From assembly GCF_003334355.1 (NCBI RefSeq), contig NZ_QOWP01000001.1: a DNA stretch of 64,000 nt. One strand, 5' to 3'. Below, in pieces: positions 1 through 2,540 of the stretch (position 1 is the stretch's first letter; each line of letters starts with the position of its first letter). This stretch comes from Escherichia coli. Lineage in GTDB: Bacteria; Pseudomonadota; Gammaproteobacteria; Enterobacterales; Enterobacteriaceae. Position numbers: made by a program.

Positions 1-2540
1 CTTCGTTTACTGTAACGCCGGGTAAATGAGCGTTTTTTGATAGTGCGAAAGAACCCTGCGAGGAAAATAAGCATCTATTATTGTTTGTCATGATGACAAG
101 GCAGGCATCAATGAAAGGCTTCCCAATTGCGCATATTTTTCACCCTTCAATCCCGCCAATGCACGCAGTGGTTAACAATCACAATAGAAATATTGATTAT
201 TGGACGGTAAAAAGAAAGTTTGCAGAAATTGTCTCCACCAATGACGTTAATAAAATTTACAGTATAAGTAATGAACTGCGGAGAGTATTATCTGCAATAA
301 CTGCATTGAATTTCTATCATGGCGATGTTCCTTCTGTCATGATCCGAATCCAACCGGAAAATATGAGTCCATTCATTATAGATATTTCTACAGGAGAACA
401 TGATGATTATATCATACAAACATTAGATGTAGGCACTTTTGCACCTTTTGGTGAACAATGTACTTGCTCAGCCGTCAATAAAAAAGAGCTGGAATGTATT
501 AAGGAGACGATTTCTAAGTATTGTGCAAAATTCACCCGAAAAGAAGCCATCTTAACACCCCTTGTGCACTTTAATAAAACCAGCATTACTTCAGATTGTT
601 GGCAAATTCTCTTTTTTTCACCCGATCATTTTAATAATGATTTTTATTGATTATTTATAAAGGATAAAATAATGTTCCCTGTTTCATCAATTGGTAATGA
701 TATTAGTAGTGATTTAGTCCGTCGAAAAATGAATGACCTTCCTGAAAGCCCAACAGGAAATAACCTCGAAGCACTAGCACCAGGTATAGAAAAACTAAAA
801 CAGACCTCTATTGAAATGGTCACTTTACTTAACACGTTACAACCTGGTGGAAAATGCATTATCACTGGTGATTTTCAAAAAGAATTAGCGTACTTACAAA
901 ATGTAATTCTTTATAATGTCTCGTCTCTTCGTCTGGATTTTTTAGGTTATAACGCCCAAATTATTCAACGATCGGACAATACTTGTGAACTTACCATTAA
1001 TGAACCGTTAAAAAACCAGGAAATATCCACAGGTAATATCAATATTAATTGCCCATTAAAAGATATTTGCAATGAAATCAGGAGGTTAAACGTAATTTTT
1101 AGTTGTGGGACTGGAGATATCGTTGATCTATCCTCTCTGGACTTACGTAATGTCGATTTAGATTATTATGATTTCACAGATAAACATATGGCTAATACTA
1201 TTTTAAATCCTTTTAAATTGAATTCAACAAATTTTACTAATGCCAACATGTTTCAGGTTAATTTTGTTAGTTCAACACAAAACGCCACAATCTCCTGGGA
1301 TTATTTACTAAAAATAACACCTGTTTTAATAAGCATTAGCGATATGTATTCTGAAGAAAAAATCAAGTTTGTCGAAAGTTGTTTGAATGAGCCTGGAGAC
1401 ATTACCGAAGAACAATTAAAAATTATGAGATTTGCAATTATAAAATCTATACCAAGAGCAACTCTTACAGATAAATTAGAAAATGAATTAACAAAAGAAA
1501 TATATAAAAGCTCATCGAAAATCAACAATTGCTTGAACAGAATTAAATTACCAGAGATGATAGATTTCTCATCAGAAAAAATACATGATTATATCGACAT
1601 AATCATTGAAGATTATGAAAATATCAAAGAAAATGCTTATCTGGTCATTCCCCAAATTAATTATACTATGGATTTAAACATAGAAGACTCTAGCTCAGAA
1701 GAGTTACTTTCAGATAATGGTATCGAGAAAGACGATAATTCTTCTGACAATTACTTTGAGGTCGAAAAAATATAACACACATGAAGCATATAACTCAGAG
1801 GAACTATATTTTACCAGAGAGGACTATACGTATGATTACGACCTTTTAAATGCAATATAGACTTAATAACTTCTTACAAAGTCTATTATTAATACCGTAA
1901 ATATTCATGCTTCTTACCCTGTGCACCAAAAGCAAAAACTTATCGATGCGGGTTTGAAACTGATGGCAACCGCAAAAATGCCTGATGCGCTACGCTTATC
2001 AGGCCTACGCCATCTCTGCAATATATTGAATTTGCGTGCTTTTGTAGGCAGGATAAGGCGTTCACGCCGCATCCGGCATGAATAAAGCGCACTCAACAAT
2101 CTGAAACCCGCCGGAACGGTTTATTACGTACATCAGGTGAAACTGACCGATAAGCCGCTTTCTTTTGGGTATAGCGTCGTGGACAGTCATTCATCTTTCT
2201 GCCCCTCCCAAAGCAAAAACCCGCCGGTTTACGCTGGCGGGTTTTCGTTAAATCAGGTGAAACTGACCGATAAGCCGCTTTCTTTTGGGTATAGTGTCGT
2301 GGACAGTCATTCATCTTTCTGCCCCTCCAAAAGCAAAAACCCGCCGAAGCGGGTTTTTACGTAAATCAGGTGAAACTGACCGATAAGCCGGGTTCTGTCG
2401 TGGACAGTCATTCATCTAGGCCAGCAATCGCTCACTGGCTCAAGCAGCCTACCCGGGTTCAGTACGGGCCGTACCTTATGAACCCCTATTTGGCCTTGCT
2501 CCGGGTGGAGTTTACCGTGCCACGGACTGTTACCAGCCGC

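What the first reader, a model, noticed from the sequence alone, without database searches (positions are those of the whole stretch)
2100..2367. Tandem duplications of the rnpB 3-prime end create stacked terminators
Two near-identical ~113-120 bp units plus a degenerate partial unit lie directly downstream of rnpB. Each unit repeats the last ~30 nt of mature M1 RNA followed by a GC-rich hairpin with flanking A/T runs. Such repeats downstream of rnpB are known in E. coli; copy number may vary between strains. The ORFs the track places here (2093-2364) are almost certainly artefacts of the repeat.
Basis: partly seen in the sequence, partly recalled or inferred. Interest (0 to 1): 0.3.

Follow-up and report, generated by a model that had tools for sequence, protein, structure and literature searches.

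The report
Known repeat array after rnpB
The DNA just after the E. coli RNase P RNA gene (rnpB) is a real but long-known tandem repeat of the gene's tail plus its terminator; it encodes no protein and its copy number varies between strains, but its gene-like core is conserved across several enterobacterial genera for an unknown reason.

Summary
rnpB lies on the minus strand (2744..2368). Its 3' end, trailer and terminator are repeated head to tail downstream, with periods of 113 and 120 bp.

The window holds T1, one complete extra unit with a strong terminator (T2), and a second unit whose hairpin has decayed. A REP pair follows, then an older remnant (1955..1903) outside the reported span.

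From memory, this is the rnpB 3'-flanking repeat that Reed and Altman described in 1983. I could not check that paper here.

Extra units range from 0 to 8 in 5,426 complete E. coli genomes; 28% have none. The ORFs are artefacts: indels shift their frames, and nine of ten RefSeq records annotate no CDS in the repeats.

The extra units share a 61-nt "pseudo 3' end" of M1 RNA carrying a 12-nt insertion and a broken P4 strand. It is 89-98% identical between Escherichia, Salmonella, Citrobacter and Klebsiella. Neighbouring fourfold-degenerate sites are only 40-48% identical. Some species keep one such copy with no terminator of its own.

Stacked terminators are therefore real in this window but probably not the whole function.

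The parts
2368..2744 (-). rnpB, RNase P RNA (M1 RNA), full length
   Evidence: Rfam RF00010, 318.6 bits, model positions 1-367. A promoter-like site GTGACA-17-TATACT lies at 2780..2752.
2368..2416 (-). Unit 0: the part of rnpB that is repeated. It has a 5' block (2416..2397) and a 3' block (2390..2368), joined in the real gene by AGAACC.
   Evidence: Anchor positions; blastn-short of the 61-mer.
2333..2367 (-). 3' trailer (GAUUUACGU...) and terminator T1. The stem-loop is at 2360..2333, with the U-run inside and after the stem.
   Evidence: Fold energy -19.4 kcal/mol, z -3.88. It also folds on the + strand and is followed by UUUUU there.
2316..2332 (-). Terminator tail and spacer (CUUUUGGAGGGGCAGAAA) between T1 and the first extra unit
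   Evidence: Direct reading. The post-terminator tail is only ~48% identical between genera.
2255..2315 (-). Extra unit 1, the 61-nt pseudo 3' end of M1: 5' block, then the 12-nt insertion ACTATACCCAAA, then AGAA, then AG in place of CC, then the 3' block
   Evidence: 98.4% identical to the K-12 unit; alignment across genera.
2214..2254 (-). Trailer and terminator T2 of unit 1. It is the long-loop type and makes this unit 120 bp instead of 113.
   Evidence: Fold energy -19.6 kcal/mol; + strand fold -25.5 kcal/mol, z -3.8. The same hairpin type serves as T1 in other Escherichia species.
2196..2213 (-). Tail and spacer after T2
2135..2195 (-). Extra unit 2, 61-nt pseudo 3' end
   Evidence: 100% identical to the K-12 unit 1 61-mer.
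2100..2134 (-). Decayed trailer and hairpin of unit 2; not terminator-like
   Evidence: Fold energy -9.3 kcal/mol, z -0.08; 87 of 200 shuffles fold at least as well. The same decayed end is found in K-12, BL21 and GF54.
1980..2078 (.). Two REP elements (1980-2008 and 2047-2078) forming a BIME-like pair inserted between unit 2 and the old remnant
   Evidence: Sub-threshold Rfam hits to REP-derived RNAs ES036 and naRNA4. This stretch gave tens of matches per E. coli genome. O157:H7 lacks it at this site.
1903..1955 (-). Degenerate remnant: decayed terminator, spacer and the start of a unit. This is the old distal end of the array.
   Evidence: Local alignment score 52 against shuffles of 17.4 +/- 3.4. 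In strains with no repeats or one repeat, an intact terminator is joined directly to this sequence.
2093..2314 (-). Artefactual ORF (73 aa) running through units 1 and 2. Related artefacts are 2311-2415 (-) and 2137-2364 (+).
   Evidence: Frames are not conserved. The sequences occur only sporadically as 'hypothetical protein' in databases.

Best explanation
This is the known tandem array downstream of E. coli rnpB. An ancestral duplication copied the last ~50 nt of the M1 RNA coding sequence together with its 3' trailer, intrinsic terminator and a short spacer. Unequal crossing-over between units has since expanded, contracted and homogenised the array.

In this window the array reads as follows: rnpB with T1, one complete 120-bp unit with a strong terminator (T2), one unit whose terminator has decayed, an inserted REP pair, and an old remnant.

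Shown here:
- the anatomy of the array;
- that it is non-coding;
- copy-number polymorphism among strains;
- concerted evolution of trailer and terminator with the resident rnpB;
- strong cross-genus conservation of the 61-nt pseudo 3' end.

Inferred:
- T1 and T2 act in series as fail-safe terminators. They look bidirectional, and would insulate the strongly transcribed rnpB from the convergent yhaC/tdc side.
- Each unit repeats the A/U-rich trailer. From memory of the literature, RNase E cuts the trailer of the rnpB primary transcript, so read-through RNA could be cut and discarded at each unit.

Why the M1-like 61-mer itself is conserved is not explained by termination.
For: Identity and anatomy:
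- rnpB and its strand; periodicity.
- K-12 MG1655 has the same units at the same place.

Terminators:
- T1 and T2 are stable hairpins followed by U-runs on both strands.
- The rnpB terminator is used and measured as a terminator in published work (PMC3643576; PMC4606813).
- No promoter-like site lies inside the array.

Turnover:
- 3,897 of 5,426 complete E. coli genomes carry 1-8 extra units (median 2); 1,529 carry none.
- Alleles with 0, 1, 2, 3 and 4 extra units were read directly.

Concerted evolution:
- In each species the trailer, hairpin type and 3' block of the extra units match that species' own rnpB end.

Non-coding:
- The 7-nt loop difference in this window changes the ORF from 38 to 73 aa.
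- A 1-nt deletion fixed in Klebsiella shifts the frame after codon 9.
- Observed substitutions are mostly non-synonymous.
- Nine of the ten RefSeq records examined annotate no CDS in the repeats; the exception is a 'hypothetical protein' under one unit in XL1-Blue.
Against: - Termination alone does not explain the conservation pattern. Between genera the hairpin region is 67% identical and the trailer 30%. The M1-like 5' block, the insertion and the 3' block are 98%, 89% and 97% identical, against 40-48% at fourfold-degenerate sites of the adjacent garK.
- Minimal arrays keep one pseudo 3' end with no terminator after it. Examples are E. coli E69, Escherichia sp. E1V33, E. albertii, and several Klebsiella pneumoniae-complex and K. 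oxytoca-complex contigs.
- The array is dispensable. It is absent from 28% of E. coli genomes and from Kluyvera, Kosakonia and Salmonella enterica subsp. arizonae and diarizonae.
- The simple terminator scan did not flag T1 or T2, because the U-run is drawn into the extended stem.
- No expression data were available here.
Confidence: 0.7

Rival explanations
1. The functional core is the conserved 61-nt 'dead' copy of the M1 3' end, and the terminators are secondary. Transcribed only when T1 is read through, it would act as an RNA module. It keeps the 3' strands of helices P1 and P2 and the J18/2 and J2/4-like segments, but has a 12-nt insertion and a broken P4 strand. It could pair with the M1 5' strands or bind a factor that recognises the M1 3' region (C5 protein, RNase E or Hfq). 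That would mark read-through transcripts for disposal or yield a processed small RNA.
For: - Between-genus identity of the 61-mer is 89-98%, against 40-48% at neutral sites next door.
- It is retained in Escherichia, Salmonella, Citrobacter and Klebsiella, although a single unequal crossover can delete it irreversibly.
- Terminator-less single copies are kept.
- The rnpB of Citrobacter sp. R56 has an extra A (CCAACGAC) that its extra unit lacks. The 5' block is therefore not simply copied from the resident gene.
- The G that replaces a P4 cytosine is constant, while the neighbouring position takes all four bases.
Against: - The 61-mer has no significant fold of its own (z about +0.3), and no convincing covariation was found.
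- It has no promoter and no Rfam family.
- It has been lost many times without obvious harm.
- Decaying copies exist in E. albertii and Escherichia sp. MOD1-EC7003.
- The metagenome hits were selected with a pattern lying inside the 5' block, so they overstate its conservation.
Confidence: 0.3
2. The array is a neutral variable-number tandem repeat with no function. Its similarity between species would result only from concerted evolution with the strongly constrained rnpB gene.
For: - The 3' block, trailer and terminator of the extra units track the resident rnpB in every taxon.
- Strain W4 carries an extra-unit-type trailer on rnpB itself.
- Copy number is highly variable and zero is common.
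Against: - Conversion from rnpB cannot maintain the 12-nt insertion or the P4 substitution, because rnpB lacks both.
- The 5' block shares only 20 nt with rnpB and sits in a different upstream context.
- Genomes with a single extra unit have no partner for homogenisation, yet keep the sequence.
Confidence: 0.2
3. The partial rnpB ends are scars (attL/attR-type duplications) left by integrative elements that target the 3' end of rnpB, as happens at tRNA and tmRNA genes.
For: - The duplicated segment runs from inside the gene to its 3' end, as att duplications do.
- The region downstream of rnpB is variable: yhaBC is present or absent, and IS621 and REPs occur there.
- The non-functional changes lie in the part that an element-borne copy would contribute.
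Against: - No integrase or mobile genes lie between or beside the copies in any locus read.
- The copies are separated only by a terminator and ~20 nt.
- No genuine phage or plasmid record carries the unit, and no viral contig among 2.9 million does.
Confidence: 0.05
4. The units encode small basic peptides (MNDCPRRYTQKKAAYRSVSP...), each preceded by a GGAGG-like sequence and linked by ATGA stop/start overlaps.
For: - An ATG preceded by GGAGGGGCAGAAAG, and TGA/ATG overlaps in 113-bp units.
- The ORFs are occasionally called 'hypothetical protein' in databases.
Against: - The frame is broken by the 7-nt indel in this window and by a fixed 1-nt deletion in Klebsiella.
- The C-terminal halves are in different frames in E. 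coli and Salmonella.
- The start codon is lost in Citrobacter sp. Awk 4.
- Substitutions are mostly non-synonymous.
- The first such ORF starts inside the structured M1 RNA.
- Nine of the ten RefSeq records examined annotate no CDS in the repeats; only XL1-Blue lists a 'hypothetical protein' under a unit.
Confidence: 0.03

Closest known systems
3'-flanking 113-bp repeats of E. coli K-12 rnpB (Reed and Altman, PNAS 1983; recalled from memory, as the paper is not in the held library)
   Same: Same locus, same strand and same unit sequence. The 61-mer is 98-100% identical to the MG1655 units. The first copy overlaps the end of the M1 coding sequence. Terminator-like hairpins and small basic ORFs occur in the units.
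   Different: This strain has two extra units rather than three. One is a 120-bp variant with a long-loop terminator. The allele is identical to those of BL21 and strain 214-4.
Tandem fail-safe intrinsic terminators, such as rrnB T1-T2 (general knowledge)
   Same: Two strong hairpin-plus-U-run terminators lie in series behind a very actively transcribed stable-RNA gene.
   Different: Here the second terminator arose by duplicating the gene's own end, and it carries a conserved piece of the gene with it. The number of terminators varies between strains from one to about nine.
Partial 3'-end duplications of tRNA and tmRNA genes at integration sites of islands and prophages (general knowledge)
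   Same: A direct repeat of the 3' part of a structural RNA gene lies just downstream of the gene.
   Different: No island, integrase or element-borne copy was found, and the copies are only ~50 nt apart (and the annotation calls).
Variable-number tandem repeat loci used for strain typing
   Same: A ~113-120-bp unit whose copy number differs among strains.
   Different: The core of the unit is conserved across genera far above the neutral level.

Membership tests
E. coli rnpB 3'-flanking tandem repeats (Reed and Altman type) | Lies immediately 3' of rnpB on the same strand, with the first copy overlapping the end of the M1 coding sequence | tested here: met
   rnpB is at 2744..2368 (-). Repeat anchors lie at 2416, 2315 and 2195, and at 2389, 2276 and 2156.
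E. coli rnpB 3'-flanking tandem repeats (Reed and Altman type) | Head-to-tail units of about 113 bp that match the K-12 units in sequence | tested here: met
   Periods are 113 and 120 bp. The 61-mers are 98-100% identical to the MG1655 units.
E. coli rnpB 3'-flanking tandem repeats (Reed and Altman type) | Each unit carries a terminator-like hairpin | tested here: inconclusive
   T1 and T2 are terminator-like. The hairpin of the last unit and that of the remnant are decayed.
Intrinsic (Rho-independent) terminator | A G+C-rich stem-loop immediately followed by a U-run | tested here: met
   T1 folds at -19.4 and T2 at -19.6 kcal/mol, followed by UUUUUGCUUU(U). The same holds on the + strand. The simple consensus scan missed them because the U-run pairs with the upstream A-run.
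Intrinsic (Rho-independent) terminator | Transcripts actually end there in vivo | not testable with these tools
   Literature only. The rnpB terminator is used and measured as a terminator (PMC3643576; PMC4606813).
Protein-coding gene (small basic ORFs in the repeats) | The reading frame is preserved among homologous copies and substitutions are biased towards synonymous changes | tested here: not met
   A 7-nt and a 1-nt indel shift the frames. The C-termini fall in different frames in E. coli, Salmonella and Klebsiella. Changes are mostly non-synonymous.
Protein-coding gene (small basic ORFs in the repeats) | Called as a gene by curated annotation | tested here: not met
   Nine of ten RefSeq records examined list no CDS in the repeats; XL1-Blue lists a 'hypothetical protein' under one unit. 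Elsewhere the ORFs appear only sporadically as 'hypothetical protein'.
att-site duplication from an integrative element | An integrase or mobile-element genes lie between or next to the repeated gene ends | tested here: not met
   Only a terminator and a spacer lie between the copies. The neighbours are garK and yhaC/tdc.
att-site duplication from an integrative element | The same sequence is carried by a phage, plasmid or island (attP) | tested here: not met
   The phage and plasmid collections return only chromosomal fragments. There were no exact matches in viral contigs.
Variable-number tandem repeat | Copy number differs among strains of the species | tested here: met
   There are 0 to 8 extra units. 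In a spread sample of 60 genomes that carry the repeat, 20 have 1 unit, 11 have 2, 22 have 3 and 7 have 4.
REP/BIME (for 1980-2078) | Imperfect palindromic ~30-35-nt elements present in many copies per genome | tested here: met
   A query containing them matched a median of 36 places per E. coli genome. They give sub-threshold hits to the REP-derived RNA families ES036 and naRNA4.
Known small-RNA family | Match to a curated RNA family other than RNase P | tested here: not met
   Nothing reaches a gathering score. The only hit specific to the repeat unit itself is a partial RNase P hit (2255-2367, 18.9 bits).

The most novel reading that the evidence does not exclude
The conserved element downstream of rnpB is not the terminator but a deliberately 'dead' copy of the M1 RNA 3' end, carrying a 12-nt insertion and a broken P4 strand. 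Selection would have maintained it across at least four enterobacterial genera. It would act as a sequence-specific RNA (or DNA) module. Candidate roles are controlling the fate of transcripts that read through T1, titrating a factor that recognises the M1 3' region, or yielding a processed small RNA.
Probability: 0.3. Interest if true: 0.55.

Novelty: already known. Interest (0 to 1): 0.3.

Why it matters
As reported, the finding matters mainly for annotation. ORFs called in this stretch are artefacts. The locus is a repeat that short-read assemblies can collapse, and its unit count is a strain marker.

The comparative result raises a small but real open question about RNase P biogenesis. A non-functional copy of the ribozyme's 3' end has been kept almost unchanged behind the rnpB terminator in Escherichia, Salmonella, Citrobacter and Klebsiella, while the surrounding sequence has diverged to saturation. 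If the copy has a function, it would reveal an unrecognised layer of control over an essential ribozyme. That could be tested with simple array deletions and scrambles.

Tried and rejected
- **Literature.** Searches for the original description and for rnpB 3' processing found nothing relevant in the held library. Reed and Altman 1983, Baer and Altman 1985 and the RNase E processing work from the Lee laboratory are therefore cited from memory only.
- **Ranking genomes by copy number.** A synthetic query of nine units failed, because the tool joins many query parts onto one place.
- **First genome-contig scan.** A pattern containing an internal N returned nothing, although the same pattern matches locally. 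The second, plain pattern worked.
- **Fuzzy regex search.** It timed out and was replaced by blastn-short.
- **Pairing between the insertion and the terminator tail.** CCCAAAAG could pair with CUUUUGGG in E. coli. I rejected the idea because the Klebsiella tail (GCUAUUCG) does not keep the pairing.
- **RNase P substrate mimic (hairpin plus NCCA-like tail).** Rejected, because the 3' tail is not conserved between taxa.
- **Internal promoter on either strand.** None was found by the scan or by eye.
- **Mobile-element origin.** Rejected for lack of any carrier.
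Full report
**1. The observation**

Rfam finds a complete class A RNase P RNA on the minus strand at 2744..2368 (318.6 bits). A promoter-like GTGACA-17-TATACT lies just upstream at 2780..2752.

The finding's span, 2367 down to 2100, is therefore the 3' flank of rnpB. Tandem Repeats Finder reports a repeat of period 120 with 2.3 copies at 2124-2390 (score 422). The repeat finder gives a 98-nt pair at 97% identity and a three-copy family spaced 120 and 113 nt.

Exact anchors recur on the minus strand:
- GATGAATGACTGTCCACGAC at 2416 (inside rnpB), 2315 and 2195;
- GGCTTATCGGTCAGTTTCACCTGAT at 2389, 2276 and 2156.

The repeat is real and far beyond chance.

**2. Anatomy, read in the direction of rnpB transcription**

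The array runs as follows.
- Unit 0 is the end of the gene itself (2416..2368). It is followed by the trailer GAUUUACGU, the terminator T1 (2360..2333, -19.4 kcal/mol, z -3.9) and a spacer GGAGGGGCAGAAA.
- Unit 1 (2315..2196, 120 bp) starts with a 61-nt 'pseudo 3' end' (2315..2255). This is followed by a trailer and T2 (2247..2214, -19.6 kcal/mol). T2 has a longer loop, which accounts for 120 bp rather than 113.
- Unit 2 has an intact 61-mer (2195..2135). Its hairpin is decayed and folds no better than shuffled sequence (z -0.08).
- Two REP elements follow (1980-2008 and 2047-2078). They give sub-threshold hits to the REP-derived RNA families ES036 and naRNA4.
- A degenerate remnant of terminator plus spacer lies at 1955..1903. 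Its alignment score is 52, against 17.4 +/- 3.4 for shuffles.

The 61-mer is not a plain copy of the last 30 nt of M1. It is made of:
- M1's GATGAATGACTGTCCACGAC;
- a 12-nt insertion (G/A)CTATACCCAAA;
- AGAA;
- AG in place of the CC of the 3' strand of helix P4;
- M1's CGGCTTATCGGTCAGTTTCACCT.

Both T1 and T2 also fold on the plus strand, where a U-run follows them. They therefore look bidirectional. The simple terminator scan missed them because the U-run pairs with the upstream A-run in the extended stem.

**3. It is the known E. coli structure, and it varies between strains**

K-12 MG1655 has the same arrangement with three extra 113-bp units, the same REP pair and the same remnant. Nothing is annotated between yhaC and rnpB.

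From memory, this is the set of 3.5 repeats of 113 bp, with terminator-like hairpins and small basic ORFs, that Reed and Altman described in 1983. The paper is not in the held library, so this attribution is unverified here.

The window's allele is identical to strain 214-4 over the 581 nt compared and has the same array as BL21.

I searched 5,426 complete E. coli genomes with a 77-nt probe specific to the extra units:
- 3,897 genomes match, at 1 to 8 places each (median 2; 8,529 places in total);
- 1,529 genomes (28%) have none;
- in an evenly spread sample of 60 positive genomes, 20 have one unit, 11 have two, 22 have three and 7 have four.

Alleles read directly:

| Strain | Extra units | Notes |
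|---|---|---|
| G749 | 0 | also lacks yhaBC |
| EDL933, W4, AR_0015 | 1 | |
| this window, BL21, 214-4 | 2 | |
| K-12 | 3 | |
| GF54, NT1N25 | 4 | |

In G749 and EDL933 an intact terminator is joined directly to the sequence that follows the remnant in this window. This is what deletion by unequal crossing-over between units would produce.

**4. The ORFs are artefacts**

Each unit offers an ATG (AGAUGAAUGAC) preceded by GGAGGGGCAGAAAG. In 113-bp units the stop codon overlaps the next ATG, which gives tandem 38-aa ORFs in K-12. Several observations argue against translation.
- In this window the 7-nt longer T2 loop puts unit 1 in frame with unit 2, producing the 73-aa ORF at 2093-2314. The C-terminal half is therefore read in a different frame from K-12.
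- In Klebsiella a fixed 1-nt deletion in the insertion shifts the frame after codon 9.
- Salmonella reads the terminator in yet another frame.
- Citrobacter sp. Awk 4 has lost the ATG.
- Substitutions among units are mostly non-synonymous: R/H, D/G/V, N/K, A/T, S/L, R/W, D/G, Q/R and T/V.
- The first such ORF begins inside the folded M1 RNA.
- Nine of the ten RefSeq records examined annotate no CDS in the repeats. XL1-Blue lists a 'hypothetical protein' under one unit.
- The peptides appear in the 15-billion-protein collection only as sporadic 'hypothetical protein' calls from E. coli and Shigella.

**5.

I scanned one genome per species for the M1 3' end. I also read mislabelled chromosomal records in the plasmid and phage collections and ran a metagenome scan. 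Taxa for the metagenome contigs were assigned by exact protein look-up.

The same 61-mer, with the same insertion, lies downstream of rnpB in:
- Escherichia whittamii, E. albertii (partial) and several unnamed Escherichia lineages;
- Salmonella enterica serovars Senftenberg (six extra units) and Kentucky;
- Citrobacter freundii, C. amalonaticus and two Citrobacter sp.;
- the Klebsiella pneumoniae complex and the K. oxytoca complex.

It is absent from six Kluyvera species, Kosakonia cowanii, an Enterobacter sp., Intestinirhabdus, and the representatives of S. enterica subsp. arizonae and diarizonae.

Between-genus identity by segment, from an alignment of twelve units:

| Segment | Identity |
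|---|---|
| 5' block | 98% |
| insertion segment | 89% |
| 3' block | 97% |
| trailer | 30% |
| hairpin region | 67% |
| tail | 48% |
| garK fourfold-degenerate sites (adjacent gene) | 40-48% |

Within each taxon the trailer, the hairpin type and the 3' block of the extra units match that taxon's own rnpB end. For example, GGCTTAACGGTCAGCTTC occurs in both the gene and the extra units of the K. oxytoca complex. That part of the unit therefore evolves in concert with the gene.

Conversion from rnpB cannot account for three features:
- the insertion and the P4 substitution, which rnpB lacks;
- the 5' block, which shares only 20 nt with the gene;
- Citrobacter sp. R56, whose rnpB has an extra A in this block that its extra unit lacks.

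Several taxa keep a single pseudo 3' end with no terminator of its own (E69, E1V33, E. albertii and several Klebsiella contigs).

Taken together, these observations suggest that selection acts on the 61-mer itself. Some caveats apply.
- The metagenome loci were selected with a pattern inside the 5' block, so only the genome-scan loci are unbiased for that block.
- Decaying copies exist (E. albertii, Escherichia sp. MOD1-EC7003).
- The element has been lost many times.
- The 61-mer has no significant fold of its own (z about +0.3).
- No useful covariation was found.

**6. Mechanism**

The best-supported account has four steps.
1. An ancient duplication copied the gene's end together with T1.
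2. Unequal crossing-over produces copy-number change and homogenisation. This is shown by the allele series and by concerted evolution.
3. T1 and T2 act as serial, bidirectional terminators between the very active rnpB and the convergent yhaC/tdc side. This is inferred from the structures and from published use of the rnpB terminator.
4. Repeated A/U-rich trailers give RNase E access to read-through RNA. This rests on literature recalled from memory.

This account does not explain the conservation of the 61-mer. The main rival is that the 'dead' M1 3' end is a functional RNA module acting on read-through transcripts or binding a factor. I give that about 0.3.

I rate three other readings lower, for the following reasons.
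- A purely neutral repeat held together by conversion (about 0.2) fails on the insertion and the 5' block.
- Integration scars (0.05) fail because no integrase was found and no phage, plasmid or viral contig carries the unit.
- Coding (0.03) fails on the frame shifts.

**7. Verdict**

The finding is correct and its interpretation is essentially right. The feature is already known in E. coli, so novelty is low.

The added value here is fivefold:
- the corrected anatomy;
- the population range of 0 to 8 extra units;
- the demonstration that the ORFs are artefacts;
- the concerted evolution of the unit with the resident gene;
- the unexpectedly deep conservation of a non-functional copy of the ribozyme's 3' end, which is a modest, testable open question.

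Noticed in passing
window 672-1775 (+): The yhaC ORF is 367 aa here, against 395 aa in K-12. It ends about 84 nt early. The same gene is annotated as 'frameshifted' in the identical strain 214-4 and in BL21. yhaB and yhaC are A+T-rich (27-38% G+C, against 50-60% for the neighbours) and are missing from strain G749. They look like a small acquired, decaying insert.
   Followed up: partly
L006 1810-2790 and L009 2217-3197 (E. coli GF54 and NT1N25): An IS621 (IS110-family) element is inserted into the second REP element just downstream of the rnpB repeat array. The alignment breaks after GGCGTAG.
   Followed up: partly
window 1980-2008 and 2047-2078: A REP pair (BIME-like) sits between the last repeat unit and the old remnant. 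It is absent at this site in O157:H7 EDL933. It gives sub-threshold hits to ES036/CssrF (32.7 bits) and naRNA4 (31.4 bits).
   Followed up: partly
L035 (Salmonella Senftenberg NCTC10384, labelled 'plasmid 2', 727,905 bp) and L036 (K. pneumoniae 'plasmid', 691,891 bp): These records in the plasmid collection carry garL-garR-garK-rnpB-tdc. They are evidently chromosomal fragments filed as plasmids. Likewise the 2.5-kb 'Salmonella phage S.Kent 1-2-1' record (L034) is the host rnpB-tdc region.
   Followed up: partly
L018 (Microvirga antarctica assembly, 289-nt contig) and L022 (Alkalicoccobacillus porphyridii assembly, 264-nt contig): These very short, low-coverage contigs carry enterobacterial rnpB 3' end or repeat sequence. 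They are almost certainly contamination in those assemblies.
   Followed up: no
L011 (Kosakonia cowanii), about 60-420 nt after the rnpB end: In place of the rnpB-end repeats, at least three tandem copies of a ~105-bp REP/BIME-like unit follow T1 directly.
   Followed up: no
L049 and L093 (Citrobacter freundii-type metagenome contigs), spacer after each terminator: The spacer is a short tandem run of GTAGATGAT, which resembles the start of the unit (AGATGAAT). This suggests slippage at the unit junction.
   Followed up: no
L023 (Salmonella enterica subsp. arizonae CCUG 6322T), just after the rnpB end: The T1 hairpin appears to be interrupted after CCCGCTTCGGCG by foreign sequence, followed by a long ORF. 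This may be an insertion element inside the terminator. It was not verified.
   Followed up: no
E. coli W4 (L008) rnpB trailer: The trailer of the real gene reads CACCTGTTTTACG, a variant otherwise seen in extra units. This is direct evidence for exchange between the gene's own end and the downstream copies.
   Followed up: partly
NZ_CP081007.1 (E. coli XL1-Blue) 4658895-4659047: A 153-nt stretch 100% identical to the K-12 unit lies under an annotated 'hypothetical protein'. I did not establish whether it sits at the rnpB locus or is a second copy elsewhere, possibly vector-derived.
   Followed up: no
window 45685-45856, 46086-46200, 52482-52582, 63269-63390, 52671-52747, 56530-56616: Other RNA features in the window are as expected for this E. 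coli region: SraG, the S15 leader, the rimP leader, the greA leader, tRNA-Met and tRNA-Leu.
   Followed up: no
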